Source: a virus
Taxonomy: Duplodnaviria > Heunggongvirae > Uroviricota > Caudoviricetes
DNA: 33,568 nt
Reading direction: 5' to 3' (one strand)
IMG/VR virus record: IMGVR_UViG_2534681672_000004
Below the pieces are notes generated by a model. That model saw nothing but the letters and a program-made list of their open reading frames with translations, searched no databases and had not been told where the DNA came from. Shown here one piece after another: positions 1 to 32,144 of this stretch (within the stretch, counting starts at the first letter, position 1; the number at the start of each line of letters is the position of its first letter). The position numbers and the translations under genes were made by a program.

Positions 1-723
1 ATGCTTTCCCACTCTTTTGAAGATCTTGCACAGGCCTTTCGGGTTTTATTAGAGTCTAACTGGTCACTACAGCGTTTGTTGGCTATTGATCGTGCTGAAG
101 CAATTGGCAATTTAGAATCGGGCCTGAATACACAACTTAATGCTTTTCATAATTTGTATGACAACATGCAAAGCAATGGATTAGAGCCTGACTGGTATTT
201 GAAACCTGAATTATTAATGATGCTTGTTATTCGAAATGCTCGGCATCATAACAAGGCCAACCGTATTAGAAGTATTTATAACTATCATCGTCAGTCCATG
301 AACGACCCTACACAGCAAAAAAACTATTTTTATGTGAATTTCCCGGCACCTCCAGAGGAAGAAGGTGGTGGCTATTTTGAGGTTCCTATCTCATGGGGAG
401 ATATTGATAAGATGCTTTCTCTGCCGCGTCAAGAATCGAGACTCCGACCAGAGGCCAAAGAACGTATACGTGATTATTTAGATGCTAATTCATTTGAAGC
501 ACAAGCAAACCAGCTAGGTCTCACAAAAGAAGATATATTCATCAACTATGTGCCGTTATCTATGAGCGCTGGAATCGCACTTCATCCATTCATCAAAGAT
601 AATATTTCGCTTAATGATGATTCGGTTGAAGCTAAAAGCTTTTTATCGCTTTTTGCTTCAACACATCCTGCGTTAACAAAGCAACATATCTGCAAGGCGA
701 TAGCTTTTTCATTACCAATCTAA
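1..723 (+). CDS. Hypothetical protein, AT-rich, no recognisable motif; may be 5'-truncated by the window edge
   Basis: 240-aa ORF ending at TAA 721-723, followed by a hairpin terminator. Composition is visibly more AT-rich than the adjacent phage late genes. Lies outside ogr, so either prophage-end cargo or flanking DNA. Confidence 0.45.
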   Translation: MLSHSFEDLAQAFRVLLESNWSLQRLLAIDRAEAIGNLESGLNTQLNAFHNLYDNMQSNGLEPDWYLKPELLMMLVIRNARHHNKANRIRSIYNYHRQSMNDPTQQKNYFYVNFPAPPEEEGGGYFEVPISWGDIDKMLSLPRQESRLRPEAKERIRDYLDANSFEAQANQLGLTKEDIFINYVPLSMSAGIALHPFIKDNISLNDDSVEAKSFLSLFASTHPALTKQHICKAIAFSLPI

Positions 724-6155: not shown

Positions 6156-7343
6156 TTATTTGCTGTTGACGGACGAGATAAGATTCGCCAGATATTTATC
6201 AGTAATGCGCTGGCGTAAGGTCAGGTGTTCGAGTGGCGGCACCGGCGTATAGTCATAATCGATAAACAGTTTCCCGGCTTTCAGGGTTTCTTTACTGTTG
6301 GCCTCTTCGTCAAACCAGCACGTCGCATCGATGATGTAACCGCCGGTTTTCAGCTCGCGGAATTTCGCGTTGATGCCGTCGATAATGTCGCGAATCAACG
6401 TCGCGGTGATGGGCTTATCGTTCGCCCACATATGCCCCTCGGCTATTGTGTCGGGTATGACCTGTGCGGTGCGGGTGTAGTTCTCAAACTGAAACAGCGG
6501 GTCATCGGAGCAATTACGGTTACCCCAGAAGCGGAAACCATCGGCACGAATCAGCGTTGTAACACCGGCCTCATTCAGCAGGTCGGCATCAGTGCCAGAT
6601 TCCTGCAAATCCCAGAAGACCGACGCACTGATACCGGTGACGCCATTGATGCCGACGTTTGACAGGGTTTTATGCCAGCCTGTGTCATTGTCGATTTTTG
6701 CGCGCAGTCCCAACGCGATCGCTGTTGCATAACTGGTTGTGGTCGCGTTGGCCGTGGTATCCCACCCGAGGAAGTCAGGCCAGATAATCATGAGCTCACG
6801 GGCGCTGAAGTTTTCGCGGTAGGCGATAACGTCAGCAATGGTTTTACAGCCCCACGCGCTGACATAGGCGAAAGCGCGCAGCTTCTGAGCCACGGAGACA
6901 AGCGCGGTCGCCACCTCCTGAGTATCGAGCCCCGGCACACCGAGAATACGTGGCTTCACGCCGGTGACCGCTTTCGCCGTTAACAGCGCTTTCATCCCGG
7001 TATATTTGCCATTCTCATCCGTGGTGCCGATGATGTTAGAAATGGTTTGCGCCTGTGCCTCTTCGCCGTCGCCGGTACCCTCCGCGACACGCACAACAAC
7101 GACAACCGGTTTTGACTGGTTAGCGATGAGCTGTAAGGATTTTGCCAGGGTACCTTTAGTACCGGCTTTTGCGATGGCGCTTTGTGGGTTGGTAATCAGC
7201 ACCGGCTCATTGAGAGGGAAAGCCCCGGCGTCAGCATCACTGGCTGTGCAGACCATGCCAACGACCGCCGTTGATACCGTCGAGATTGTGCGGGTGCCGT
7301 CGTTAATTTCGACGACCTCGACACCGTGATGATAATCACTCAT
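6156..7343 (-). CDS. FI: Contractile tail sheath protein gpFI
   Basis: 395-aa ORF at the head of the FI-FII-E-T-U-D operon; size and order match P2 FI. Confidence 0.9.
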   Translation of the reverse strand: MSDYHHGVEVVEINDGTRTISTVSTAVVGMVCTASDADAGAFPLNEPVLITNPQSAIAKAGTKGTLAKSLQLIANQSKPVVVVVRVAEGTGDGEEAQAQTISNIIGTTDENGKYTGMKALLTAKAVTGVKPRILGVPGLDTQEVATALVSVAQKLRAFAYVSAWGCKTIADVIAYRENFSARELMIIWPDFLGWDTTANATTTSYATAIALGLRAKIDNDTGWHKTLSNVGINGVTGISASVFWDLQESGTDADLLNEAGVTTLIRADGFRFWGNRNCSDDPLFQFENYTRTAQVIPDTIAEGHMWANDKPITATLIRDIIDGINAKFRELKTGGYIIDATCWFDEEANSKETLKAGKLFIDYDYTPVPPLEHLTLRQRITDKYLANLISSVNSK

Positions 7344-7407
7344 CCGTTTAACTCCGTTAGTTGAGGTGAGTGATATTGTCTGGTTTACGCCTGTATGCGG
7401 CTATTTG

Positions 7408-7986
7408 TCAGGGTTCGCCGGTGGCTGACACAACGGGATTTGTCGCCGGAAATTTTTTATACAGCGTCGATATGCCCACATCAAAAATCAGTGCAACACG
7501 CTGTCGGGATTCTCCGGCCGCAATCAACCGGCCAGCCTGAGCCCATTCATCAGGCGTCAGCTTCGGCCTACGACCTCCGATCCTGCCTTGTGCCCGGGCT
7601 GCATCCAGCCCGGCGCGGGTTCGTTCGACGATTAACTCGCGTTCCATTTCTGCAAGAGCGCCCATGATGTGAAAGAAAAATCGCCCCATCGGGGTTGAGG
7701 TATCAATACTGTCGGTCAGGCTTCTGAAATTAACCCCTCGCTGGCGAAGCTCTTCAGTCATAGAGACAAGATGGCGCATGCTACGCCCGAGCCTGTCGAG
7801 CTTCCAGACAACGAGAGTATCACCGGCATTAAGTTGCCTGAGTGCGCGATTTAACCCTGGCCTGTTTGTCGATTTACCGCTGATTTTATCCTCGAAAATT
7901 AGCTCACATCCCGACCGTTCCAGCGCGTCACGCTGTAGCGCGGTATTTTGTTCATTTGTTGATACGCGCACATAGCCAACCTGCAT
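7408..7986 (-). CDS. Serine-recombinase DNA invertase (Hin/Gin/Cin/Pin family)
   Basis: N-terminus MQVGYVRVSTNEQNTALQRDAL... with catalytic-Ser motif; C-terminal HTH (GESRQRVALIFDVGISTLYKKF); GAGGGA RBS before ATG at 7986; sits beside an invertible tail-fibre segment. Confidence 0.9.
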   Translation of the reverse strand: MQVGYVRVSTNEQNTALQRDALERSGCELIFEDKISGKSTNRPGLNRALRQLNAGDTLVVWKLDRLGRSMRHLVSMTEELRQRGVNFRSLTDSIDTSTPMGRFFFHIMGALAEMERELIVERTRAGLDAARAQGRIGGRRPKLTPDEWAQAGRLIAAGESRQRVALIFDVGISTLYKKFPATNPVVSATGEP

Positions 7987-8040
7987 TTGTTTTCCCTCAT
8001 GCAAAAGCCCAAATGATGCCAGCTAGGGGGGAAAACTACA

Positions 8041-8066
8041 TTTTCTTAAACGTTGGTTTGGGAGAA
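8041..8066. other. hix/gix-like 26-bp recombination site (left boundary of invertible segment)
   Basis: TTTTCTTAAACG-TT-GGTTTGGGAGAA: two 12-bp half-sites around a 2-bp core; inverted copy of the site at 9888-9913. Confidence 0.8.
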
Positions 8067-8513
8067 GGTTCGGCATTACCCGTTGGTGTGCCTGTTCCGT
8101 GGCCTTCCGCCACTCCGCCAACAGGCTGGCTGAAATGCAACGGTGCGGCTTTTTCTGCTGAAGAATACCCGGAACTGGCAAAGGCTTACCCGACAAATAA
8201 ATTGCCTGATTTACGTGGTGAGTTCATTCGTGGCTGGGATGACGGAAGAGGAATAGATACTAACCGTAGCTTGCTTTCGTCACAGGGAGATGCCATTCGA
8301 AATATAATTGGTGCATTAGTGGATGTCAGGTTTAATACCTACCCTTCTGATTCTGGCGTTTTTACAACCAGCGTCATCGGAGATGCTTCATCTGATTCAA
8401 TTAAAGGTGGTTATGCAAAGCGAGTAACATTCGATGCTTCCAGAGTTGTTCCAACTGCAAACGAAAACCGACCTCGTAACATTGCCTTTAATTATATCGT
8501 GAGGGCTGCCTGA
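8055..8513 (+). CDS. Alternative tail-fibre C-terminal cassette (no own start; expressed only after inversion)
   Basis: Frame open from the hix core to a stop at 8513; encodes ...PVPWPSATPPTGWLKCNGAAFSAEEYPELAKAYP...NENRPRNIAFNYIVRAA, which I recall as close to Mu S/S' variable fibre ends. Confidence 0.75.
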   Translation, partial: GLGEGSALPVGVPVPWPSATPPTGWLKCNGAAFSAEEYPELAKAYPTNKLPDLRGEFIRGWDDGRGIDTNRSLLSSQGDAIRNIIGALVDVRFNTYPSDSGVFTTSVIGDASSDSIKGGYAKRVTFDASRVVPTANENRPRNIAFNYIVRAA

Positions 8514-9115
8514 TGAATAAAGCCGTATTAAATAACGAACTCATTGCCATAAAAGCGGGAGACATTACCATTTATAATTATGATGGTGAAACGCGGGAAT
8601 ATATTTCCACATCAACTGAATATCTTGCGGTTGGCGTCGGTATCCCGGCATGTTCTTGTTTAGATGCACCAGTTACACATAAAGCTGGTTATGCAATCTG
8701 CCGTTCTGCAGATTTTAACTCATGGGAATATGTGCCAGACCATCGCGGTGAAATCATCTATAGCACCGAAACAGGAGAATCGAAAGAAATCACAGCTCCG
8801 GGTGATTACCCTGAAAATACAACCACTATCGCCCCGTTAACGCCATATGATAAATGGGATGGTGAGAAATGGGTGACGGATACTGAGGCACAGCATAGTG
8901 CCGCAGTAGACGCGGCAGAAGCACAGCGCCAGTCACTGATTGATGCAGCAATGGCTTCCATTAGTCTGATTCAGCTGAAATTACAGGCCGGACGGAAGTT
9001 GACGCAGGCAGAAACAACCCGACTTAACGCCGTGCTGGATTACATTGACGCGGTGACGGCAACAGATACCAGCACCGCGCCGGATGTCATCTGGCCTGAA
9101 CTGCCGGAGGCGTAG
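8513..9115 (+). CDS. Tail-fibre assembly chaperone (partner of the alternative fibre C-terminus)
   Basis: 200-aa ORF starting at the stop of the alternative cassette; C-terminal LNAVLDYIDAVTATDTSTAPDVIWPELP motif typical of Tfa/gpG/U proteins. Confidence 0.85.
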   Translation: MNKAVLNNELIAIKAGDITIYNYDGETREYISTSTEYLAVGVGIPACSCLDAPVTHKAGYAICRSADFNSWEYVPDHRGEIIYSTETGESKEITAPGDYPENTTTIAPLTPYDKWDGEKWVTDTEAQHSAAVDAAEAQRQSLIDAAMASISLIQLKLQAGRKLTQAETTRLNAVLDYIDAVTATDTSTAPDVIWPELPEA

Positions 9116-9527
9116 GCCATTCAATATCTGGAGCACTGGAGGTATCGACCAGTTCCAGTGCGTCCAGATAATCCAGCCACAAATTATATTGCGCCAGTTC
9201 CTCACCTTTCAGGCGACCAATAGCCGCTTTACCAGGCCATTGTTTACTGTTCATATAATCGTTGGCCTGATTAATCAGTTGCTGCTTTTCCAGTTCGGCT
9301 GCAGCAATCTGTTCCTCATGTGTTGGTGGTGGAATTTCAGACCATGCAGGAAAACCATTTTCTCCAGCGATACGGATTTTTCCTTTCGGCGGTAATCCGG
9401 AAAACTCAATATACGCTTGCTCATCAACTTCAACAGCATCATCTGGCCATGAGTCAGCTTGAGTGTAATCCTCTTTCATCTCCAGCGGATAGAAAGAGTT
9501 TGTAGTCACGGAATATATGTAATTCAT
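9087..9527 (-). CDS. Tail-fibre assembly chaperone (partner of the currently expressed fibre C-terminus)
   Basis: 146-aa ORF directly downstream of H; C-terminal NLWLDYLDALELVDTSSAPDIEWPTPP motif typical of Tfa proteins; converges on and overlaps the other Tfa gene. Confidence 0.85.
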   Translation of the reverse strand: MNYIYSVTTNSFYPLEMKEDYTQADSWPDDAVEVDEQAYIEFSGLPPKGKIRIAGENGFPAWSEIPPPTHEEQIAAAELEKQQLINQANDYMNSKQWPGKAAIGRLKGEELAQYNLWLDYLDALELVDTSSAPDIEWPTPPAVQAR

Positions 9528-9548
9528 TTTTCACTCCATATAGCTAAA

Positions 9549-10508
9549 TTAACAGCCTAACGCTAAAAATGAAGCGCCGAGGCCAGGAGTACTGGCTCTG
9601 GATATAAATTTAACCGGGTCGGGACTAAAACCTGCACAGGCAATATAACCAACAGCCCCGCTATCTGGTGTGTAGTCTTGTGAGACCAAAACACGCAGAC
9701 ATCTGTTTGGAAATGCAATCGGGAAATGGGTTACTATATCCTGTGCAATGCCTGGTGCGCCGATTGAGCCCCACTGAAGAATAAAACCTGATGGTAATTT
9801 TTGATATCCAGTACCTGAAACAGAAAGCGTGAAGCTACCCATATCAGGTATCTGATTTGCCCCTGTCCCTACATTCCTTTTAGCCGCTTCTCCTAAACCA
9901 AGGTTTTTGAGAACCTCAGCAACCAATCCGGCGTCGGCCATTTCTTTTAGTGCGTTCGCAATCAGCGGGTATTGCTTATGCGGGTTAGCCTTTGCCTCAT
10001 GATCTTTCATGAGTTTGTCGGCGTAGCTCTTCACCTCGATGACTGCATCGTCGACATATTTACGGGTTGCCAGCACGACTGACGGGTCGATTTTTAAGGT
10101 GATCGCCGAAGTGCTCGAGACAACGAGAATCATGCGAATGGTCTGCGTTCGGCCGCTCCCCTCAGCCAGTAACGGTTTATAGGTTTCCGGGCAGTTGGCG
10201 ACAGCAATCAGGATACCTTCATCATCGTAAAGACCGATTTCGCGGATAAAGAAACCGCCCTCGTTTTCCGGGATGATCTGCTCGGCAATAATCTGACCGG
10301 TGTCGTTAGCATCTACTGCCAGTGAATTTAGCAGCTCGCGGCGACGCTCGTTAATGAGCTTTGTCTGAGCCGGGTCAGGTGTCGGCAGTGTGCCGTTTCC
10401 GTCCCCGACGGCCATTTGTGTAATATTCAGTTTAGTACCGAGTGCGGTCGCGTTTGCCAGTCGCGCCGCGCCCTGATGGGTCAGAATGGCAAAATATTTA
10501 GTCGTCAT
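9549..10508 (-). CDS. H: Tail fibre protein gpH (constant N-terminal part plus currently expressed variable C-terminus)
   Basis: N-terminus [22 protein letters not shown]...MAVGDGNG...[18 protein letters not shown]...AEGSG matches the conserved P2 H / Mu S N-terminal region; the hix site lies inside the ORF at 9888-9913. Confidence 0.85.
9888..9913. other. hix/gix-like 26-bp recombination site (right boundary, inside gene H)
   Basis: TTCTCCTAAACC-AA-GGTTTTTGAGAA; very close to the Salmonella hix site as I recall it (TTCTTGAAAACCAAGGTTTTTGATAA). Confidence 0.8.
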
Positions 10509-11116
10509 GCGCTTACTCGCAGGTTATCAATCAGATGAATGGCCGAAGCCGGACAAAACTCACCACCGACGACAATCTCCCCGGAGGCATAGGGATATAC
10601 GGTTAACAGGTCGCCGTCGTAGCAGCTTGCGCCCACATAAGCGCGCCCGGTGGTGCTCAGGCTGATAGCGAGCCCGGTCAGGTGTCGGCTTGCCGGTTTT
10701 GCCCCTTCAATAAGGCGCTCGAGCTCGAGATACATCTCATCGGTGATGCCGGTCTCGAGTACGCCAACCACAAGCCGGAAAGTTCCCGGCTCTTCGTTGA
10801 GCTCCCACCACTCTTTAACCTCAATCAGATAGCCCAGCGGCTCCACCACGCGCCGTAATGCGGCGATGGTGCCTTTGTGGGCATGAACATAAAATGCGGA
10901 GGCGATAACGCTGCGTTTTGTGGCCTCCGGCCATCTCTCATCCCACCGGTCAACCGAAAATGCCCACGCCAGATACGGCAGCAGCCGCACCGGGCAAGTG
11001 CGCCAGTTCCACAACGTGCGAAGCGGTACCGGCACACGCTCAATATCTGCGGCCGCGCGGGCGGCGGCGACCTCGAGCAGCGATGAGCCAACAGGCAACA
11101 GTCGCTTATTACTCAT
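10505..11116 (-). CDS. I: Baseplate protein gpI
   Basis: Start taken at internal ATG 11116 ([12 protein letters not shown]...), directly after the J stop; position between J and H as in P2. Confidence 0.8.
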
Positions 11117-12021: not shown

Positions 12022-12369
12022 TCAACTCACAGGAATAGTCAGTGACAGGGTTTTGCCGGTGTCCCGGGTCTCGCCGGTCAGCTCAACAATCATCTGACCG
12101 TTAAACTGACGTTCTACCGTCAGCGAGCTGATGCTGATGCGCGGCTCCCACTTCAGCAGCGCCATATAACAGGCGCACATAATTTGCAGTCTCAGCGCGT
12201 CGGTCTGCGGCATATCAATCAGGGAGAACAACAGCGAGCCATAATCGCGACGCATCACGCGAGAGCCGACCGGCGTTCGCAAAATATCGCCACAGCTCTG
12301 ACGGATGTGATCGGCGTCAGTGATGGCGCGCCCGGTCTCCCTGTTCATACCGATATAACGGGTCGTCAT
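12022..12369 (-). CDS. W: Baseplate protein gpW
   Basis: 115-aa ORF (P2 W size) between V and J. Confidence 0.85.
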   Translation of the reverse strand: MTTRYIGMNRETGRAITDADHIRQSCGDILRTPVGSRVMRRDYGSLLFSLIDMPQTDALRLQIMCACYMALLKWEPRISISSLTVERQFNGQMIVELTGETRDTGKTLSLTIPVS

Positions 12370-13007
12370 TTCGTGCCCTCCGTCCAGGCTCCACCTCTTT
12401 GCACACCGCCGTGACCGTGGCTGTCGACCTGAACGCCGTTGGATTTAAACGTACCGTCGGTGTGTTCGATGTTTCCGCGCATGGTGCCGCCTTGTTGTAC
12501 CTCAAGCGTCGCCGTCGTCAGTTTGTTGGTGCAGACCACTTCCGGTGTATCGAGGGTGATGCGGGTCTCGGCTTTCACCGTCACCAGCGGTACCGTCGCG
12601 GTGATGGAATCCGACGCCGTAACGTCTGCGGTTTTAATGCCGCTCACGGTCAGCGCGCCGGTCTCCGGCTCGTACTCGATAACAGCCCCATCAGGAAAGG
12701 TGATGTGAAAAGCATCAGCCGACGCCGACGGCGCGGGGTGGTCATCCGAAAAAATGCCGGGCAGCACAAAAGCGGTGTCGAGTTCACCACCCACGGCCAG
12801 CAGTAAAACCTGCTCGCCCACAGACGGAGCCCACCAGACACGTGAACGACCGGCGCGTGTGGTCAGCCACTGAAGCCAGTCGGTAACAATGCCGCCAGTC
12901 TGGACGCGACAGCGCCCGTCATCGAGGTCAACTTCGACGACGACGCCGGTACGTATCAGGTTGCGAAGGAGGCGTAAAGCGTCCTGAAGAGTTGCGCGAG
13001 TATTCAT
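12366..13007 (-). CDS. V: Baseplate spike/hub protein gpV
   Basis: Start at internal ATG 13007 (MNTRATLQDALRLLRNLIRTGVVVEVDLDDGRCRVQTGG...), which closely parallels the P2 gpV N-terminus as recalled. Confidence 0.85.
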   Translation of the reverse strand: MNTRATLQDALRLLRNLIRTGVVVEVDLDDGRCRVQTGGIVTDWLQWLTTRAGRSRVWWAPSVGEQVLLLAVGGELDTAFVLPGIFSDDHPAPSASADAFHITFPDGAVIEYEPETGALTVSGIKTADVTASDSITATVPLVTVKAETRITLDTPEVVCTNKLTTATLEVQQGGTMRGNIEHTDGTFKSNGVQVDSHGHGGVQRGGAWTEGTK

Positions 13008-13083
13008 ACAAGGAAGGATGCCGCCCGGTGCTCTGGACGGCAATTAATGCGGGTTTTACCAGATATGGCACAACATACAAAAA

Positions 13084-14427
13084 CTAGCTTGGGGTAACTG
13101 TAACCTGACGAGAAAAAACAACAGGCTCCTTCAATTGCTCACATATAATTTTAAAATTAATAACTCCAGAGCCAATCGTTAAGGGAATGATGACTATTTC
13201 CTCATACTCAACAGTTAAGCTCTGTAACACTTTTTTCGCACGCAACGTGATTTTATGGTCCTCTTTCATGACCCACTCATCTTGGTTAACTGTTCCTAAA
13301 TCAGCCATCCGTTTAATTATTGCTGGCACTTCGAAATGAGGTTTAGCCATTACCATCGATGTATCATCAAAAATACCCATCCTAAAATTTTCGAGTGACA
13401 TTATAGCACTGAGTCTTTTTTTATGCTTACTTATTGGGGACTCAGGGATTTTTAATTTCGGCTCTTTTATAAATAAGTCTTCATTAGAACCTTTAAGCAC
13501 TATTAGGAATTCAGGAAAATCAATCTCAACATAAACATTTGACGCAAAAGTCCTCCCATTATTTCTTAAAACGGGCTTCACTGTAATTGCATTGTTTTTG
13601 TAATTACAGTGCAATCTCATTTTTTTATTATATAAATCCACATCTTTATCAGTAGGCAGTGAAGAGTTATATGATTCAATCTCATCAATGGTGATAGTGT
13701 CCTTCAACTCAAGAGGTACCGCTTCCTTGCATAGTTGTGGAAGGTAATCCTGATAAGTCGACTCCACATCCACCGTCAAAGCTAAGTCATTATCAATCAT
13801 GCTCAGCTCTAATTGAGGTGCATCGCTATGTAATTGGCTTTCATATTCGCGGACTTTTTCCCTTAATTTTCTATTTTCATTAGATAGCTCAGCCAACTCG
13901 GCGGTAATCTCTTTAGATGCGACCTGGTCACCGCGCACCCATCCTATTCGTGGATTTCGTCGCATTACTTTTGGTAAGGCGATAGCAACCTTCGTCGCTA
14001 ACTCATCAATTGTCTCCCAAAAATCACACATTTTGTTAGCTTTAGCTTTTTCAATAAAAGCATTTAGTTGCTTTTCTTTTTGAGGGTCACTTTCTCGTTC
14101 ATGTGGTTTTGTTAAAACGTCCCTCCCTCTAATAAAAGCCAACACCGGTATATTTAATGATTTAGCATAGTTATATTCCATTTCAGTATAGCTAATACCA
14201 TCTTTAGAAACGGACCCATACTTATGCCCAATGATAATCACATAATAATCACTAGCATCAATAGTCTCCTTTATTATATCCCACTGCTCAGAGTCATCAG
14301 CGCTAAACATCTCCATGCCAACTGGAAAGTGGTATAAACTAAGGACCGTTTCTATGATTTTTTTGCGAGCATCAATTAAATCGACGTATGTAGAGCTCAC
14401 AAATACTTGATATTTTTTATTTTCCAT
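13084..14427 (-). CDS. AT-rich cargo protein with N-terminal DUF4062-like (TIR/SLOG-like Rossmann) motif, central coiled coil and uncharacterised C-terminal domain; candidate anti-phage/accessory gene
   Basis: Start at ATG 14427 (MENKKYQVFVSSTYVDLIDARKK...) with GAGGA RBS. The VF-SST..DL...R and YYVIIIGHKYG motifs match my recollection of DUF4062. Inserted between S and V, which are adjacent in P2; strongly AT-rich by eye. Confidence 0.65.
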   Translation of the reverse strand: MENKKYQVFVSSTYVDLIDARKKIIETVLSLYHFPVGMEMFSADDSEQWDIIKETIDASDYYVIIIGHKYGSVSKDGISYTEMEYNYAKSLNIPVLAFIRGRDVLTKPHERESDPQKEKQLNAFIEKAKANKMCDFWETIDELATKVAIALPKVMRRNPRIGWVRGDQVASKEITAELAELSNENRKLREKVREYESQLHSDAPQLELSMIDNDLALTVDVESTYQDYLPQLCKEAVPLELKDTITIDEIESYNSSLPTDKDVDLYNKKMRLHCNYKNNAITVKPVLRNNGRTFASNVYVEIDFPEFLIVLKGSNEDLFIKEPKLKIPESPISKHKKRLSAIMSLENFRMGIFDDTSMVMAKPHFEVPAIIKRMADLGTVNQDEWVMKEDHKITLRAKKVLQSLTVEYEEIVIIPLTIGSGVINFKIICEQLKEPVVFSRQVTVTPS

Positions 14428-23296: not shown

Positions 23297-23983
23297 TTAT
23301 TGCTTATCTTGTGGTGGTGGAACCTCTTTTTCTAAATTATCTACATACTCTCTAATATTGAATGCTTTGTTTTTCCTTATTTCGGTAGTGTTAACCTTAC
23401 TAACACCATCACGAATGTTTTTATTTATGGTGTCTATTAATTTTTGTCTTTCTTGTTCTGTTTTTATTATTTCACTTAAGAATGACTTTGCGTTTCTTGA
23501 AATGTCCGTCTGTCTATTAATGAATAGTATCGCATACACTGAAAAAACCAAGCAAGTAGTCGTTAGTGCGGAATTAAAAAATACCCCATAATAAACATTA
23601 ACTTTTGTTATTGACGCTGATAACGTTAGTGATATCAAAAAAAACAAAATCAGGGTAAAAATATATGCAATGGTTACTTTGTTTTTAGTGGTGTCAAGAA
23701 TGTATGAAGTTCTTTGATCATCAAAGTAATCCTTTATCCTTGATGGAGTGTTTGCGGGGAGTTCTAACTCCTTTATTTTATCATCAGCATCAATTAGTCG
23801 CTTAAACATGAGGCTAATGATTACGGCGCTAAAGACAGAGATCCCCTTTGAAATTATAGGATCGAAATCAATTAAAAATGAGTATTTTGAATAAACAAAA
23901 ACAATAACAAAACCACATATAAGCCCAATTACAATTGAGCTTGCTATGTTTTTTGCATATGTTTGTAACGTATTGTTTATCAT
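23297..23983 (-). CDS. Four-TM membrane protein, second gene of an AT-rich two-gene cargo operon (candidate effector)
   Basis: Four hydrophobic helices followed by a charged C-terminal tail; ATG overlaps the upstream gene's TGA (ATGA coupling); strongly AT-rich. Confidence 0.7.
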   Translation of the reverse strand: MINNTLQTYAKNIASSIVIGLICGFVIVFVYSKYSFLIDFDPIISKGISVFSAVIISLMFKRLIDADDKIKELELPANTPSRIKDYFDDQRTSYILDTTKNKVTIAYIFTLILFFLISLTLSASITKVNVYYGVFFNSALTTTCLVFSVYAILFINRQTDISRNAKSFLSEIIKTEQERQKLIDTINKNIRDGVSKVNTTEIRKNKAFNIREYVDNLEKEVPPPQDKQ

Positions 23984-24963
23984 GGGTTAATTACTCCGGT
24001 GTCTAGTAAGCGCAATAACCATGAAATCATTTCTTCAGCAACGTTGTCAGCAATTAGCATTCCATTGCTGTATTCAATATTAACTGAATCCTTTAGTTGA
24101 ATCTCATCATTCCTGAGTATTCCTGCACCTTTTAACTCAATTGTTAAGCTTTCATCTCTATTATCAACCAAGCCTTGTGTAATTTTACGCAACATGTCTT
24201 GCTCAGACTCGCTTGCTTTATATTTATACCCAATGGAAATATCAATTGATAGAGATTCCCTGTCAGGTGAACCATCATTTAAAATGGTATTTTTCTTCAT
24301 TTCATTAATTCGATGTTCACCTACGAGCGTTTTTAATAGCTCACTAGCTGTATCATCAATATTATTTCCATAGTAGGTTAAAGGCAGCTTTAAGCTAACA
24401 TTTTTTACTATGTTACGTTTTAAAAAATCCGTATTTAGAGACAGGTTGTTTGCCTGTAAAACGATGAAGTTATCATCAGTAATAGATAGGTTGTCTTGTA
24501 GTATGAAATTTATATAATTTTCAATATCTTTTATTCTAATAGATCTGCTTTGCAGAATTATGAAGTGGTTCTTAATCACACCAATGTATGCAATGCTTTC
24601 TAAATACTCTCTAGCATTCCCACTTGATAAATTTAATGTCTCGTATGTTAAAGCTGTTTTAGCATAATCGCTAACAGAGAAAACAGGAATGCTACTACCC
24701 GGTTCAATATAGACAATTTCCGCAAAAAACATTCCATGAATTTCTTTGCTATTTGAAAGAACCATGTGGGCGTGAGCAGCGACATTACCATTATTATCTG
24801 GAACATCAGGGAAGAATAATCTATCAGCAACATTTGGAACCTTGATTTTCACAAGGTTTGCCAACCTATCTTGCAGGTTTGATGTTAAAAGAGCATCCTT
24901 TTTAGGAAGCATTATTGCATGGCGATAATGCAGCATTTTACTCTTATAATCTTGCGTTGCCAT
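23980..24963 (-). CDS. Hypothetical cytoplasmic protein, first gene of the AT-rich two-gene cargo operon (candidate sensor/enzyme)
   Basis: 327-aa ORF with GAGGGA RBS before ATG 24963; no motif I can recognise; between portal gene Q and cos. Confidence 0.7.
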   Translation of the reverse strand: MATQDYKSKMLHYRHAIMLPKKDALLTSNLQDRLANLVKIKVPNVADRLFFPDVPDNNGNVAAHAHMVLSNSKEIHGMFFAEIVYIEPGSSIPVFSVSDYAKTALTYETLNLSSGNAREYLESIAYIGVIKNHFIILQSRSIRIKDIENYINFILQDNLSITDDNFIVLQANNLSLNTDFLKRNIVKNVSLKLPLTYYGNNIDDTASELLKTLVGEHRINEMKKNTILNDGSPDRESLSIDISIGYKYKASESEQDMLRKITQGLVDNRDESLTIELKGAGILRNDEIQLKDSVNIEYSNGMLIADNVAEEMISWLLRLLDTGVINP

Positions 24964-25557: not shown

Positions 25558-25706
25558 TAACGTATTGGCAAAAGATGGGAAGAGAAAAAGTGAATCGGGT
25601 AGGTGTTGTATGTACATGATATGGATGTAAATTAATCACCTGTGAGTTTTGATGTTTCTGCCAGCACCGCAACACGATTAAGGATTTCCCTAGGCTTTGC
25701 CTGAAG

Positions 25707-27854
25707 CTATGGCGCTGCGGAGAAAATTTCACCTTTGGACGTTCCACGCAACCATTTACCGTTAATACAACTTTTGCCACCTGCTATCAGGTGCAGGGCT
25801 TCTCCCCGGCTGATGGTAATGCCGGTTGTCAGACGGATCTCGTCGATAGTTTTTTCTATCGGAGCACTTTGCTCATCTGTTCCGTGGATAAATTTCGGCC
25901 TCTTAGGTGGCTTTGGTTTCCTGATTCGGTTCGTCAGCTCTCGCCTTTCACGTCGACTCAGGGGTTTTGATAAATCGAGTTCCGGTGGATCGCTTTCGCT
26001 TCCCGTACAGTTATTGACAGAACTCCAAGGGACGGCGAAGCCGTCCTTAACGTCAACGGCCAAATCAACGGCACGCTTCGGAACAATTTTCCATTGCGTG
26101 AGCCGGGTTAAAATCGGAGTGCCAACACCAACGGTGGAGTCGTACACACCACGAATGCAGACAGTTTCCTCACCATACTGGTTAAACTCGGTGCGCGGTT
26201 CATAAAGCGTACGCACCTGCAAATCATCGCGACGGACAAACGGACCGCCCTGCGCATTAACATAGCCAGCCCAATCACCGGCATCGGCGGCATCATGGAC
26301 AGCCGCAAACTCAACACTTAGACCGTGCGCGGTCTCGGTATCTGCAAGGCGACGCAATTCACGATAAACAGTCACTGGTGCACCACCGATAAACTGAAAC
26401 TGACGAATATGCCAGCGCGCCGCCCATGCTGAAACGGCGGGGGCTGTCTCTTTCAACAGTTCACCGTTTTCGTCATCGGTTTCGTCATCAAGAGCGTAAC
26501 CGTCGATATTTTTCGAGATGTATTTCGCGACGTAGCCGGTTGCGCTGCCTTTCTCCGGATCAATGGCTTCTGCGTGGAAACGTGCTTTTTTGGCTTTATC
26601 GCTTTTGAGTTCGTGAAAATCTTCTTGCCATGCGTAGTCCCGAATAATGCCACGAACGGTATCGACGTCCTCCGGGAGCATAAACATCAGCATATGCCAG
26701 TGAGGGCACCCGTCATGGTGAGGCTCTGCAACGCGGATCCCGAAAATACGAATGTCTTCACGGTGGAGTTTTGCGCGAATGCGTGCCCACAGGCCAGTGA
26801 GATAACATTGCGTATCGGATGGATTGGATCCATTCCATTTGGTGTTACGGTAGCCTGCCTTTGTCGTGGCGTGATATTTAGACGGTGCGGTCAGGGTGTA
26901 AAACTCACCAACATAACCGAGCTCATTGCAGATATTTTCAAACCCACGAATGCGGGTCATAAGCTCACAGCGTCGAATCGCAGAGTTAGCGACTGAACCA
27001 TCGTATTTTTCAATCAGGCTGATACGGTTGCCGTCTTCGTCTTCAAGCTCCAGACCTTTGAGAAATTCGCGCGTCCGGCGCTTCTGTTCACGCCAGTCTG
27101 TCACGCAGTTTTTACTCGCGTAGACATGTTTTTTCTTACTGACATTTCCGATTGCGATTTGCAGGTGTTCGCGCCACGCAGCCGCAATGCGACGCAGACG
27201 GCCACGCCACCATTTTTCCGAAAACATACGGGCAATTGCTGGAGCGACTTTATCCTGATCCCAATATTTATCCCGCGACCGTTCCCACTCTGGTGGCATT
27301 ATCCTGAATTGCTGAGTGATGAAACCAGCATGCATATACCAGGCATTTAATGTCTCCAGTTCACACATGTCAGAATCGTCAATGTTGACTAACTCTGCAC
27401 GGATAAAATCGGCGATATCAGCAGCCAGCAGGTCGATGTCGGCGCGTGCCATATCCGGGAGTCGGTTGTATCTGGCGACTATGTTGACCATGCGAGACGC
27501 CAGATATTGCATAAGCTGAGTATCGAAATGACAACCGAAAACAGCGGCTGATACGTTGCTGTTAATACCGGTACACTCGTATTTTTTTGCGACCAGTTCA
27601 AAACGCGGCAATGCCTTTTTGCAGAAGCTTATTAAAAAAGCATTGGCTCGTTGACTGCCCTGATTTTGCTCCAGCACCGCAGCAGTGCGATAAACGTCAA
27701 AACGTACACACTCGGGCTGGAGGGAAAGCACCTTTCTAGCATGCAGCAAAGCCGCGAGCATACGGTCGCGGCGATACTGTTGGTCGTAGGTAAGATATGG
27801 ACTGGCTATTGCCGACCGTGGAGCATTCCACGGAAACGCGAATTGAACAGCCAA
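25707..27854 (-). CDS. A: Replication initiation protein gpA (rolling-circle initiator)
   Basis: 715-aa ORF; region ...IRVAEPHHDGCPHWHMLMFM... and ...YVAKYISKNIDGY... with the active-site Tyr context characteristic of P2/186 A. Confidence 0.9.
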   Translation of the reverse strand: MAVQFAFPWNAPRSAIASPYLTYDQQYRRDRMLAALLHARKVLSLQPECVRFDVYRTAAVLEQNQGSQRANAFLISFCKKALPRFELVAKKYECTGINSNVSAAVFGCHFDTQLMQYLASRMVNIVARYNRLPDMARADIDLLAADIADFIRAELVNIDDSDMCELETLNAWYMHAGFITQQFRIMPPEWERSRDKYWDQDKVAPAIARMFSEKWWRGRLRRIAAAWREHLQIAIGNVSKKKHVYASKNCVTDWREQKRRTREFLKGLELEDEDGNRISLIEKYDGSVANSAIRRCELMTRIRGFENICNELGYVGEFYTLTAPSKYHATTKAGYRNTKWNGSNPSDTQCYLTGLWARIRAKLHREDIRIFGIRVAEPHHDGCPHWHMLMFMLPEDVDTVRGIIRDYAWQEDFHELKSDKAKKARFHAEAIDPEKGSATGYVAKYISKNIDGYALDDETDDENGELLKETAPAVSAWAARWHIRQFQFIGGAPVTVYRELRRLADTETAHGLSVEFAAVHDAADAGDWAGYVNAQGGPFVRRDDLQVRTLYEPRTEFNQYGEETVCIRGVYDSTVGVGTPILTRLTQWKIVPKRAVDLAVDVKDGFAVPWSSVNNCTGSESDPPELDLSKPLSRRERRELTNRIRKPKPPKRPKFIHGTDEQSAPIEKTIDEIRLTTGITISRGEALHLIAGGKSCINGKWLRGTSKGEIFSAAP

Positions 27855-30815: not shown

Positions 30816-30860
30816 CTGATGAATCCCCTAATGATTTTGGTAAAAATCATTAAGTTAAGG

Positions 30861-30930
30861 TGGATACACATCTTGTCATATGATCAAATGGTTTCGCGAA
30901 AAATCAATAATCAGACAACAAGATGTGCGA
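30861..30930 (-). ncRNA. IS10 RNA-OUT antisense RNA (approximate position)
   Basis: Placed from established IS10 organisation (pOUT transcript antisense to the 5' end of tnp, near the outside end); coordinates not read from the sequence. Confidence 0.4.
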
Positions 30931-32131
30931 ACTCGATATTTTACACGACTCTCTTTACCAATTCTGCCCCGAATTACACTTAAAACGACTCAACAGCTTA
31001 ACGTTGGCTTGCCACGCATTACTTGACTGTAAAACTCTCACTCTTACCGAACTTGGCCGTAACCTGCCAACCAAAGCGAGAACAAAACATAACATCAAAC
31101 GAATCGACCGATTGTTAGGTAATCGTCACCTCCACAAAGAGCGACTCGCTGTATACCGTTGGCATGCTAGCTTTATCTGTTCGGGCAATACGATGCCCAT
31201 TGTACTTGTTGACTGGTCTGATATTCGTGAGCAAAAACGACTTATGGTATTGCGAGCTTCAGTCGCACTACACGGTCGTTCTGTTACTCTTTATGAGAAA
31301 GCGTTCCCGCTTTCAGAGCAATGTTCAAAGAAAGCTCATGACCAATTTCTAGCCGACCTTGCGAGCATTCTACCGAGTAACACCACACCGCTCATTGTCA
31401 GTGATGCTGGCTTTAAAGTGCCATGGTATAAATCCGTTGAGAAGCTGGGTTGGTACTGGTTAAGTCGAGTAAGAGGAAAAGTACAATATGCAGACCTAGG
31501 AGCGGAAAACTGGAAACCTATCAGCAACTTACATGATATGTCATCTAGTCACTCAAAGACTTTAGGCTATAAGAGGCTGACTAAAAGCAATCCAATCTCA
31601 TGCCAAATTCTATTGTATAAATCTCGCTCTAAAGGCCGAAAAAATCAGCGCTCGACACGGACTCATTGTCACCACCCGTCACCTAAAATCTACTCAGCGT
31701 CGGCAAAGGAGCCATGGGTTCTAGCAACTAACTTACCTGTTGAAATTCGAACACCCAAACAACTTGTTAATATCTATTCGAAGCGAATGCAGATTGAAGA
31801 AACCTTCCGAGACTTGAAAAGTCCTGCCTACGGACTAGGCCTACGCCATAGCCGAACGAGCAGCTCAGAGCGTTTTGATATCATGCTGCTAATCGCCCTG
31901 ATGCTTCAACTAACATGTTGGCTTGCGGGCGTTCATGCTCAGAAACAAGGTTGGGACAAGCACTTCCAGGCTAACACAGTCAGAAATCGAAACGTACTCT
32001 CAACAGTTCGCTTAGGCATGGAAGTTTTGCGGCATTCTGGCTACACAATAACAAGGGAAGACTTACTCGTGGCTGCAACCCTACTAGCTCAAAATTTATT
32101 CACACATGGTTACGCTTTGGGGAAATTATGA
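30923..32131 (+). CDS. tnp: IS10 transposase
   Basis: 402-aa protein MCELDILHDSLYQFCPELHLKRLNSLTLACHALLDCKTLTLTELGRNLPTKARTKHNIKRIDRLLGNRHL..., recognised as IS10 transposase from memory. Confidence 0.95.
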   Translation: MCELDILHDSLYQFCPELHLKRLNSLTLACHALLDCKTLTLTELGRNLPTKARTKHNIKRIDRLLGNRHLHKERLAVYRWHASFICSGNTMPIVLVDWSDIREQKRLMVLRASVALHGRSVTLYEKAFPLSEQCSKKAHDQFLADLASILPSNTTPLIVSDAGFKVPWYKSVEKLGWYWLSRVRGKVQYADLGAENWKPISNLHDMSSSHSKTLGYKRLTKSNPISCQILLYKSRSKGRKNQRSTRTHCHHPSPKIYSASAKEPWVLATNLPVEIRTPKQLVNIYSKRMQIEETFRDLKSPAYGLGLRHSRTSSSERFDIMLLIALMLQLTCWLAGVHAQKQGWDKHFQANTVRNRNVLSTVRLGMEVLRHSGYTITREDLLVAATLLAQNLFTHGYALGKL

Positions 32132-32144
32132 GGGGATCTCTCAG

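What the first reader, a model, noticed from the sequence alone, without database searches (positions are those of the whole stretch)
8041..9913. Hin/Gin-type invertible tail-fibre segment with defined 26-bp crossover sites and frame-preserving inversion
Inverted 26-bp sites (8041-8066 TTTTCTTAAACG-TT-GGTTTGGGAGAA; 9888-9913 TTCTCCTAAACC-AA-GGTTTTTGAGAA) flank about 1.87 kb. This segment holds the current H C-terminus, two convergent Tfa chaperone genes and a promoterless alternative fibre C-terminus. Inversion about the core dinucleotides joins H at ...LKNLG to LGEGSALPVGVP... in frame (coordinate arithmetic: position p maps to 17954-p, keeping codon phase). The adjacent invertase (7408-7986) occupies the position of the P2 Z/fun accessory locus. 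This is a host-range phase-variation switch, known from Mu, P1 and e14.
Basis: partly seen in the sequence, partly recalled or inferred. Interest (0 to 1): 0.55.

Follow-up and report, generated by a model that had tools for sequence, protein, structure and literature searches.

The report
Invertible tail-fibre switch in P2-like prophage
This is a classic Gin/Cin/Pin-type DNA-inversion switch that lets a P2-like E. coli prophage swap the tip of its tail fibre; it is real and evidently active, but it is an already described kind of system and a near-identical copy has been shown to flip experimentally.

Summary
Two 26-bp sites (8041-8066, 9888-9913) lie in inverted orientation, match the pix/cix/gix consensus, and are the only such sites in the window. 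Inverting the 1.85 kb between their central dinucleotides in silico turns the 319-aa fibre protein H into an in-frame 355-aa H with a different C-terminal domain and brings the cognate chaperone gene next to it. The adjacent gene (7408-7986, minus strand) encodes an intact serine invertase, 79/75/70% identical to Pin/Cin/Gin. It carries the catalytic Ser9, the Fis-contact residues, and two blocks of synonymous-site constraint 48 nt apart where P1 annotates the Cin enhancer.

The key new evidence concerns orientation. The same prophage, at the same chromosomal site, occurs in complete E. coli genomes in both orientations: 2 as in the window and 9 as the predicted inversion product. Apart from the inversion these copies differ from the window by only 6-7 SNPs over 30.6 kb. 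The flipped copy read in full (FORC 064) carries hybrid sites that place the exchange within 8053-8059.

A remnant in EPEC E2348/69 is 96-99% identical and its invertase matches at 191/192 residues. That locus was shown by sequencing of clonal cultures to phase-vary (Goldberg 2014).

Verdict: interpretation supported; already known biology; low interest.

The parts
7408..7986 (-). DNA invertase gene (192 aa; ATG at 7986, stop 7408-7410)
   Evidence: Pfam Resolvase 5e-51 plus HTH_7 1e-12. 79% identical to e14 Pin, 75% to P1 Cin, 70% to Mu Gin, with Ser9, Arg42, Gln150, Arg153 and Leu154 conserved. Best solved relative is Mu Gin 3UJ3, E=1e-86. 191/192 identical to the E2348/69 invertase.
7897..7968 (-). 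Inferred Fis-dependent recombinational enhancer inside the invertase gene (gene nt 19-90); constrained blocks at 7951-7962 (TCAACAAATGAA) and 7903-7914 (TCGGGATGTGAG)
   Evidence: This is the homologous position of the enhancer annotated in the P1 record, cin nt 19-90. It is 82% identical to P1 there, against 64% in the rest of the first 200 nt. In 74 unique invertase genes, synonymous-codon identity peaks at codons 9-12 and 25-28, which are 48 nt apart (0.82-1.0 against a gene mean of 0.46; permutation 25/5000). Fis binding itself was not tested.
8041..8066 (.). Invertase-proximal crossover site (pixR-like), core TT at 8053-8054, centred 67 nt upstream of the invertase ATG
   Evidence: Its reverse complement TTCTCCCAAACCAACGTTTAAGAAAA matches the e14 site next to pinE at 25/26. 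A site at the same -66 to -69 position occurs in 35 of 65 related IMG/VR loci.
8054..8513 (+). Silent alternative fibre C-terminus (Sv', StfE-like, Collar domain); no N-terminal fibre domain of its own
   Evidence: Pfam Collar 1e-15. 61% identical to e14 StfE. It becomes the C-terminus of a 355-aa H after inversion.
8513..9115 (+). Tail-fibre assembly chaperone (200 aa, TfaE-like), cognate of the silent C-terminus
   Evidence: Pfam Caudo_TAP 2e-32. 93% identical to e14 TfaE.
9087..9527 (-). Tail-fibre assembly chaperone (146 aa), currently in the expressed orientation behind H
   Evidence: Pfam Caudo_TAP 3e-38. The C-terminal 102 aa are 61% identical to e14 TfaP. It shares the same 29-bp convergent overlap with the other tfa as in e14.
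9549..9900 (-). Currently expressed variable C-terminus of H (Sv, Gp53-like_C domain)
   Evidence: Pfam Gp53-like_C 6e-14 at H residues 237-319. In flipped genomes it is annotated as a separate 'gp53-like domain-containing protein' next to the invertase.
9888..9913 (.). Crossover site inside H (pixL-like), core AA at 9900-9901; encodes ...LKNLGLGE...
   Evidence: Homology to other prophages and to e14 ends at window 9904-9913. Hybrid sites are seen in the flipped genome.
9901..10508 (-). Constant N-terminal part of fibre protein H (Sc, about 203 aa), transcribed with the V-W-J-I late operon
   Evidence: Pfam Phage_tail_fib N-terminal domain 1e-61. Gene order V W J I H as in P2.

Best explanation
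A two-state, site-specific DNA inversion switch of the Gin/Cin/Pin type sits in the tail-fibre region of a P2/186-like prophage. The invertase (7408-7986) binds as dimers to the two 26-bp sites. It is presumably activated by Fis bound to the enhancer inside its own 5' coding region, about 97 bp from the proximal site. It cuts both sites at the central AA/TT dinucleotide, rotates one half of the tetramer by 180 degrees and religates, which inverts 8054-9900. Because the distal site lies in frame inside gene H, the constant 203-aa N-terminus (baseplate attachment) becomes fused to one of two C-termini. One is the Gp53-like C-terminus followed by the 146-aa Tfa (present state, H = 319 aa). The other is the Collar-type, StfE-like C-terminus followed by the 200-aa TfaE-like chaperone (flipped state, H = 355 aa). 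Only the cassette facing the late V-operon promoter is expressed. A lysogen population therefore yields particles with two receptor specificities. Shown here: the sites, the frame, the intact enzyme, and both orientations in nature with the predicted junctions. Shown by others: flipping of a near-identical copy in culture. Inferred: Fis dependence, strand-exchange chemistry and the change of host range.
For: Sites and their rarity. Match to annotated cixL/cixR of P1, the G boundaries of Mu and the e14 sites. Frame-preserving inversion. Domain content. Invertase similarity and conserved residues. The window orientation is found full-length in 2 complete E. coli genomes. The in-silico inverted 3.3 kb is found full-length in 9 genomes, 7 of them with one mismatch and 2 at 99.9%. 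The prophage sits at the same rplS-proximal site with the same gene set in these genomes. FORC 064 differs from the inverted window at only 7 of 30,600 positions, and 1190 and PCN033 differ from the window at 6-7. Hybrid sites TTTTCTTAAACGTTGGTTTaGGAGAA and TTCTCCcAAACCAAGGTTTTTGAGAA in the flipped genome confine the exchange to 8053-8059. E2348/69 locus 2977580-2979467 showed 93+/-4% forward orientation in 4 clonal cultures (PMC4272514 Table S1); this locus is L007, 95.6-99.9% identical in DNA, with an invertase identical at 191/192 residues. Enhancer homology and synonymous constraint. Fis-contact residues as defined in PMC3798978 are present. The same architecture, a proximal site at -67 with an inverted partner 1.3-2.5 kb away, occurs in 28 of 51 related viral contigs.
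Against: Nothing in the sequence argues against it. Four minor caveats remain. (1) The residue equivalent to Hin Lys47, reported as invariant Lys in 15 invertases, is Asn46 here; Hin K47A is about 3-fold slower. (2) Each of the two constrained enhancer blocks deviates by one base from the family majority. (3) No sigma-70-like promoter for the invertase was picked up by the simple scan. (4) In this window the prophage integrase is split by IS10 and gene A has an amber stop 25 codons before its end, so virion production, and hence any host-range pay-off, is doubtful in this particular strain.
Confidence: 0.93

Rival explanations
1. The switch works as described, but its output is no longer phage host range. 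The prophage is defective and its tail module, with a switchable fibre, serves the host, for example as a tailocin-like killing particle, or serves nothing at all.
For: The integrase is interrupted by a 1329-bp IS10 with a 9-bp target duplication. The replication gene A carries a premature TAG and is annotated as a pseudogene in all three related genomes read. E2348/69 keeps only the tail-side remnant, yet it still flips. PMC4272514 raises this possibility for such loci.
Against: The IS10 insertion is private to the window; int is intact in 1190, PCN033 and FORC 064. The amber stop removes only 25 of about 740 codons and may be tolerated. Head, lysis and packaging genes are all present. No evidence of particle production or killing is available.
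Confidence: 0.15
2. The orientation differences among genomes were produced by another enzyme, not by the adjacent invertase. Candidates are a Din-family invertase of a second prophage acting in trans (cross-complementation among Gin, Cin, Pin and Hin is established knowledge) or RecA-dependent recombination between the inverted repeats.
For: E. coli genomes often carry several such loci, up to 7 matching places per genome. E2348/69 has three invertible phage loci.
Against: The local invertase is intact and identical in all copies read; none of the SNPs between the window and the three related genomes lies in 7408-7986. RecA is unlikely because the repeats are only 26 bp at 21/26 identity. The exchange maps to the 7 bp around the core.
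Confidence: 0.05
3. A frozen relic: the sites and gene are recognisable, but in this strain the switch no longer turns over.
For: Asn46 replaces the otherwise invariant helix-B lysine, and there is a one-base deviation in each enhancer block. The E2348/69 copy is strongly biased, 93:7.
Against: Near-identical prophages differ in orientation while having only 1-2 SNPs between them, so flipping is much faster than point mutation. The 99.5%-identical enzyme flips its segment in culture.
Confidence: 0.03

Closest known systems
P-inversion system of the e14 element of E. coli K-12 (pinE; stfP-tfaP / tfaE-stfE)
   Same: Identical layout: gpI-like gene, short fibre gene with an in-frame site, two convergent tfa genes overlapping by 29 bp, a silent Collar-type C-terminus, then the invertase reading away from the segment with its ATG 67 nt from the crossover. 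The segment is about 1.85 kb. The invertase-proximal site matches at 25/26. Pin is 79% identical, TfaE 93% and StfE 61%.
   Different: Here the cassette sits in a complete P2/186-like tail module, not in a lambdoid remnant. The constant fibre part is about 203 aa against about 97 aa. The expressed Gp53-like C-terminus is only 27% identical to StfP. The invertase has a 9-residue longer C-terminal tail that overlaps the pF late-promoter activator site.
Invertible locus of the P2-like prophage remnant of EPEC E2348/69 (NC_011601.1 2977580-2979467; Goldberg et al. 2014, PMC4272514)
   Same: The same element lineage: sheath-invertase-segment DNA is 95.6-99.9% identical, the invertase is identical at 191/192 residues and the proximal site is identical. 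It was shown experimentally to phase-vary.
   Different: In E2348/69 the prophage is cut off exactly at the distal site. The outer half-site and the constant part of H are gone, so no fibre can be made. About 200 bp in the middle of the Collar-type C-terminus differ.
G segment / Gin of phage Mu and C segment / Cin of phage P1
   Same: Same enzyme family (70% and 75% identity). Same 26-bp sites with an AAACC-NN-GGTTT core region. Enhancer inside the 5' end of the invertase gene. Sc / Sv-U / U'-Sv' logic. Mu gin also starts 67 nt from the crossover.
   Different: The Mu and P1 segments are 3.0 and 4.2 kb with much longer fibre parts. P1 cin reads toward the segment, and cixL overlaps its 3' end. 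The Mu core dinucleotide is GA/TC.
Hin / H segment of Salmonella (flagellar phase variation)
   Same: Same recombinase subclass and mechanism. About 100 bp separates the proximal site from the first Fis site, compared with about 97 bp here.
   Different: hin lies inside its segment, and the switch moves a promoter rather than swapping a coding C-terminus.

Membership tests
Fis/enhancer-dependent serine DNA invertases (Hin/Gin/Cin/Pin) | Small serine recombinase: N-terminal resolvase catalytic domain plus C-terminal HTH, about 190 aa | tested here: met
   PF00239 at 5e-51 (residues 3-135) and PF02796 at 1e-12 (residues 138-181); 192 aa.
Fis/enhancer-dependent serine DNA invertases (Hin/Gin/Cin/Pin) | Catalytic serine (Gin S9 / Hin S10) and conserved active-site arginines | tested here: met
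   S9, R7, R42, R65 and R68 are invariant in the alignment with Pin, Gin and Cin.
Fis/enhancer-dependent serine DNA invertases (Hin/Gin/Cin/Pin) | Closer to invertases than to resolvases | tested here: met
   70-79% identity to Gin, Cin and Pin. Gin 3UJ3 scores E=1e-86, against gamma-delta resolvase at 3e-29.
Fis/enhancer-dependent serine DNA invertases (Hin/Gin/Cin/Pin) | Fis-contact residues of DBD helix 1 (Hin Q151, R154, L155), conserved only in invertases (PMC3798978) | tested here: met
   Q150, R153 and L154 are present and invariant across the four proteins.
Fis/enhancer-dependent serine DNA invertases (Hin/Gin/Cin/Pin) | Basic helix-B residues (Hin K47, R/K48, K/R51) | tested here: inconclusive
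   R47 and R50 are present, but the K47 equivalent is Asn46. The paper reports Lys in all 15 invertases aligned and an approximately 3-fold defect for the single mutant.
Fis/enhancer-dependent serine DNA invertases (Hin/Gin/Cin/Pin) | Two 26-bp sites in inverted orientation, each with 12-bp half-sites around a 2-bp core, and cores identical | tested here: met
   The sites agree with annotated cix, gix and the e14 sites, and with the consensus of 28 related loci, most of which have an AA core.
Fis/enhancer-dependent serine DNA invertases (Hin/Gin/Cin/Pin) | Cis-acting enhancer with two Fis sites about 48 bp apart | tested here: inconclusive
   The region homologous to the annotated P1 enhancer is conserved. 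Two synonymous-constraint peaks lie 48 nt apart. Fis binding and enhancer function cannot be tested here. A naive G-N13-C scan did not give a clean pair.
Fis/enhancer-dependent serine DNA invertases (Hin/Gin/Cin/Pin) | The segment really inverts | tested here: met
   Both orientations occur in otherwise near-identical prophages, with hybrid sites. A 96-99% identical locus was shown to flip experimentally.
Invertible tail-fibre host-range cassettes (Mu G, P1 C, e14 P) | Constant fibre N-terminus outside the segment, an in-frame crossover, and two alternative C-termini each followed by its own Tfa chaperone, convergently arranged | tested here: met
   The flipped H is annotated as a 1068-nt CDS in FORC 064.
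Invertible tail-fibre host-range cassettes (Mu G, P1 C, e14 P) | The two orientations give different adsorption specificity | not testable with these tools
   Inferred from the two unrelated C-terminal domains, Gp53-like_C and Collar, and from what is established for Mu and P1.
P2-like (Peduoviridae) tail module with an accessory slot between G and FI | Gene order V-W-J-I-H-G-[slot]-FI-FII-E-T-U-D, with the pF activator site upstream of FI | tested here: met
   ORFs and RefSeq annotation. P2 has fun(Z) in this slot. The pF activator-site sequence is conserved at 7406-7430.
Multi-site inversion systems (EPEC three-repeat P2 locus; shufflons) | Three or more crossover sites giving more than two arrangements | tested here: not met
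   Only two sites occur in the whole window, even with one mismatch allowed in the core pattern.

The most novel reading that the evidence does not exclude
In the strain this window comes from, the prophage cannot excise (integrase split by IS10) and has an amber-truncated replication gene. It nevertheless keeps a complete tail, lysis and fibre-switch module with an intact invertase. The least ordinary reading still open is that the element is being kept as a host-serving, tailocin-like device whose target spectrum is diversified by the inversion switch. The unusual Asn46 invertase and its C-terminal tail overlapping the pF late-promoter activator site might then tune flipping bias or link it to late-gene activation.
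Probability: 0.06. Interest if true: 0.4.

Novelty: already known. Interest (0 to 1): 0.13.

Why it matters
It matters mainly for annotation. RefSeq labels these genes only as 'recombinase family protein' and 'phage tail protein', and it calls the silent cassette a free-standing gene. Recognising the switch explains three things: why otherwise identical prophages differ by a 1.85-kb inversion, why assemblies may collapse or mis-join here, and why the fibre gene has two lengths (319 or 355 aa). Biologically it is another instance of bet-hedging on receptor specificity. The orientation polymorphism among near-clonal prophages gives a convenient natural record that flipping outpaces point mutation. 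It opens no new question.

Tried and rejected
(1) I tried to locate the two Fis cores directly by scanning for G-N13-C 15-mers 48 bp apart in the window, e14, Mu and P1 genes. The only 48-bp pairs found did not coincide with the conserved blocks, so I dropped this in favour of the synonymous-constraint profile.

(2) I tried to get published Fis-site coordinates for the gin and cin enhancers. One six-term literature search returned nothing, and Hengen et al. 1997 is not held. I relied instead on the enhancer feature in the P1 GenBank record.

(3) The simple promoter and terminator scan of 7300-10600 gave no more promoter-like sites than shuffles did, none of them upstream of the invertase on its strand. 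The only terminator-like hit just downstream of a tfa gene was a weak hairpin after the 146-aa tfa, so no claim is made about the invertase promoter.

(4) NCBIfam gave only sub-threshold matches to large serine recombinases and to Mpi, which was uninformative.

(5) A third crossover site, which would indicate a shufflon-like system, was searched for and not found.

(6) RecA-mediated inversion was considered and rejected because the repeats are short and imperfect and the exchange maps to the core.

(7) PADLOC found nothing for the four accessory ORFs noticed in passing.
Full report
**1. What is in the sequence**

The window is a P2/186-like prophage. Its late genes lie on the minus strand in the order V (12366-13043), W, J, I, H (9549-10508), then sheath FI (6156-7343), tube FII, E, T and onward.

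RefSeq annotation of near-identical copies in E. coli 1190, PCN033 and FORC 064 places the prophage just downstream of rplS and names the same genes.

Four ORFs lie between H and FI, and one more lies beyond them:
- A 146-aa Caudo_TAP chaperone (9087-9527, minus strand).
- A convergent 200-aa Caudo_TAP chaperone (8513-9115, plus strand), overlapping the first by 29 bp.
- A plus-strand reading frame ending at 8513 that encodes a Collar-domain fibre C-terminus with no fibre N-terminus.
- A 192-aa protein with Resolvase and HTH_7 domains (7408-7986, minus strand).

H itself has the Phage_tail_fib N-terminal domain and a Gp53-like C-terminal domain.

**2. The sites**

- They are the best inverted repeat in the region.
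- Read in the same sense they are 21/26 identical, with the same central dinucleotide AA.
- As a bare inverted repeat this would not be impressive. However, the family-specific pattern TTCTCCYAAACCAASGTTT occurs only at these two places in 33.6 kb, on opposite strands, against 0.04 expected.
- A looser core pattern finds no third site.

They match the recombination sites of known systems:
- cixL and cixR as annotated in the P1 record, with crossovers at the central dinucleotide.
- The G-segment boundaries of Mu.
- The two sites of e14. The invertase-proximal site is 25/26 identical to the one next to pinE.

**3. Frame**

Reverse-complementing 8054-9900 in silico joins the constant part of H to the Collar-type frame as ...[20 protein letters not shown].... 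The result is a 355-aa protein without interruption. The result is the same wherever inside the core the cut is placed. The 200-aa chaperone gene then follows H directly, as the 146-aa one does now.

**4. The enzyme**

The protein is 79% identical to e14 Pin, 75% to P1 Cin and 70% to Mu Gin. Its best solved relative is Gin (3UJ3, E=1e-86), far ahead of the resolvases.

Conserved features:
- The catalytic Ser9 and the conserved arginines are present.
- The three DNA-binding-domain residues that McLean et al. (PMC3798978) found to contact Fis and to be conserved only in invertases are present. These are Hin Q151, R154 and L155, which correspond to Q150, R153 and L154 here.

One deviation: the helix-B residue equivalent to Hin Lys47 is Asn46 here. 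That paper reports Lys at this position in all 15 invertases aligned, and Hin K47A is only about threefold slower.

The gene lies outside the segment and reads away from it, with its ATG 67 nt from the crossover. This is exactly the arrangement in Mu and e14. The layout is therefore that of Gin/Pin, not Hin.

**5. Enhancer**

The P1 record annotates the Cin enhancer at cin nt 19-90. The homologous stretch of the window gene (7897-7968) is 82% identical to P1, against 64% for the rest of the first 200 nt.

To test for DNA-level constraint I collected 80 related loci from IMG/VR. I then compared codon usage in 74 distinct invertase genes.
- Among sequence pairs with the same amino acid, codon identity averages 0.46 over the gene.
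- It rises to 0.94-1.0 at codons 9-12 (nt 25-36) and to 0.82-0.97 at codons 25-28 (nt 73-84).
- The two blocks are centred 48 nt apart.
- The best 8-codon window is reached in 25 of 5000 permutations.

From my own knowledge, 48 bp is the centre-to-centre spacing of the two Fis sites of the Hin enhancer (Johnson, Glasgow and Simon 1987, listed in the references seen).

The window carries both blocks with one deviation each: TCAACAAATGAA (the same A as in P1) and TCGGGATGTGAG. The first block lies about 97 bp from the crossover, compared with about 100 bp in Hin.

This is good evidence for a conserved enhancer. Fis binding itself remains inferred.

**6. Does it flip?**

This is the main new evidence.
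- A megablast of 7300-10600 against 5,426 complete E. coli genomes finds the window arrangement full-length in two genomes, 1190 and PCN033.
- The in-silico inverted sequence is found full-length in nine genomes. Seven score 6091 bits, which I calculate to be one mismatch, and two are at 99.9%.
- The one mismatch is the window's own SNP at 9737.
- Over 30,600 aligned bases, FORC 064 differs from the inverted window at 7 positions. 1190 and PCN033 differ from the window at 6 and 7 positions, and six of these are private to the window.

Apart from the inversion, these prophages are therefore practically identical and sit at the same chromosomal site.

The two sites differ at five positions, so the flipped genome carries recognisable hybrids: TTTTCTTAAACGTTGGTTTaGGAGAA and TTCTCCcAAACCAAGGTTTTTGAGAA. 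These place the exchange within the 7 bp 8053-8059, which include the core.

RefSeq annotates the resulting H as a 1068-nt CDS.

**7. Experimental precedent**

Goldberg et al. 2014 (PMC4272514) sequenced clonal cultures and list an invertible 'P2' locus in EPEC E2348/69 at NC_011601.1 2977580-2979467. It showed 93+/-4% forward orientation in four colonies.

That locus is hit H78/L007.
- It is 99.9% identical to the window over sheath and invertase, and 92-96% identical over most of the segment.
- Its invertase differs at one residue, G44R.
- The same paper shows about 50:50 flipping of the e14 segment in K-12.

**8. Relation to e14**

The segment is a mosaic relative of the e14 P segment.
- TfaE is 93% identical.
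- StfE is 61% identical.
- The TfaP C-terminal half is 61% identical.
- The expressed Gp53-like tip is only 27% identical to StfP.

The 29-bp convergent overlap of the two tfa genes is the same in both.

Among related viral contigs with enough upstream sequence, 48 of 65 have a site 60-125 nt upstream of the invertase. In 35 of these it is at -66 to -69. In 28 of 51 there is also an inverted partner 1.3-2.5 kb away, usually with an AA core. The arrangement is therefore common.

**9. Position in the P2 map**

In P2 the interval between G and FI holds the V-operon terminator, fun(Z) on the opposite strand, and the pF activator site. Here the same interval holds the silent half of the cassette and the invertase.

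The pF activator-site sequence is conserved: P2 has TTGTGCTGTCGATTAGCCAACCGGGACAAATAGCC and the window has TTGTGTCAGCCACCGGCGAACCCTGACAAATAGCC. It overlaps the last codons of the invertase.

**10. Verdict**

Both the observation and the interpretation are correct. The system is a member of the Gin/Cin/Pin invertase and tail-fibre cassette family, closest to e14 Pin. It belongs to the same lineage as the E2348/69 locus already shown to phase-vary.

Two things remain inferred: Fis dependence and the actual change of receptor specificity.

In this particular window the pay-off is doubtful, because the integrase is split by IS10 and gene A has an amber stop.

Novelty: already known. Interest: low.

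Noticed in passing
window 30816-32144: A complete 1329-bp IS10 (402-aa DDE transposase; ends CTGATGAATCCCC... and ...GGGGATCTCTCAG) is inserted in the prophage integrase gene, flanked by a 9-bp target duplication TACCCAGCC. The integrase is split into a 181-aa N-terminal ORF and a 173-aa C-terminal ORF. It is intact (345 aa) in strains 1190, PCN033 and FORC 064.
   Followed up: yes
window 25632-27854 (-): Replication gene A has an in-frame TAG at 25707-25709, 25 codons before the normal TAA. RefSeq calls it a pseudogene ('internal stop') in all three related genomes read, so the mutation predates the orientation differences.
   Followed up: partly
window 7406-7440 (-): The last codons of the invertase (...PVVSATGEP*) overlap the conserved pF late-promoter activator-binding sequence upstream of sheath gene FI. 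The invertase's C-terminal tail, 9 residues longer than Pin's, is encoded by this promoter region.
   Followed up: partly
window 7849-7851 (codon 46 of the invertase): The invertase has Asn where Hin has Lys47. PMC3798978 reports this residue as Lys in all 15 DNA invertases aligned and as contributing to enhancer contact. The E2348/69 copy shares it and shows a biased 93:7 orientation ratio.
   Followed up: partly
L007 5628-5660 (E2348/69, NC_011601.1 about 2977580): In E2348/69 the prophage is truncated exactly at the distal crossover site. Only the inner half-site plus AAGG remains, followed by an integrase fragment. Even so, the published data report inversion at this locus.
   Followed up: partly
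window 13084-14427 (-): A 446-aa DUF4062-domain protein gene lies between the S and V homologues, the position I recall for P2 orf30. It is a likely accessory (moron) gene. It has no PADLOC match.
   Followed up: partly
window 23297-24963 (-) and 1-723 (+): Two overlapping hypothetical genes (227 and 326 aa) lie next to the portal gene, in the accessory slot where, from memory, P2 carries old. A 240-aa hypothetical gene lies at the rplS-proximal prophage end. None has a Pfam or PADLOC match.
   Followed up: partly
window 5067, 6455, 6558, 9737, 11277, 24288: Six single-base differences separate the window from all three related genomes read. The one at 9737 changes H residue 257 from Val to Ile in the currently expressed tip. 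No complete RefSeq E. coli genome matches 7300-10600 without a mismatch, and the three related copies read in full lack the IS10, so the source strain appears not to be in that collection.
   Followed up: partly
hits H28/H86 (strain MS 198-1: NZ_CP146687.1 and NZ_CP146689.1); H84, H85: A related sheath-invertase-segment module (89.7% identical) appears in one strain in the window orientation on the chromosome and in the flipped orientation on a 66.8-kb record. It also appears on records of about 210 kb in two other strains. This may reflect phage-plasmids, duplicated prophages or assembly of both orientations.
   Followed up: no
window 8013-8513 (+): RefSeq annotates the silent cassette as a free-standing 166-aa 'phage tail protein' starting at an ATG in the invertase-site spacer. 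It lacks any fibre N-terminal domain and is better regarded as the unexpressed alternative 3' end of H.
   Followed up: yes
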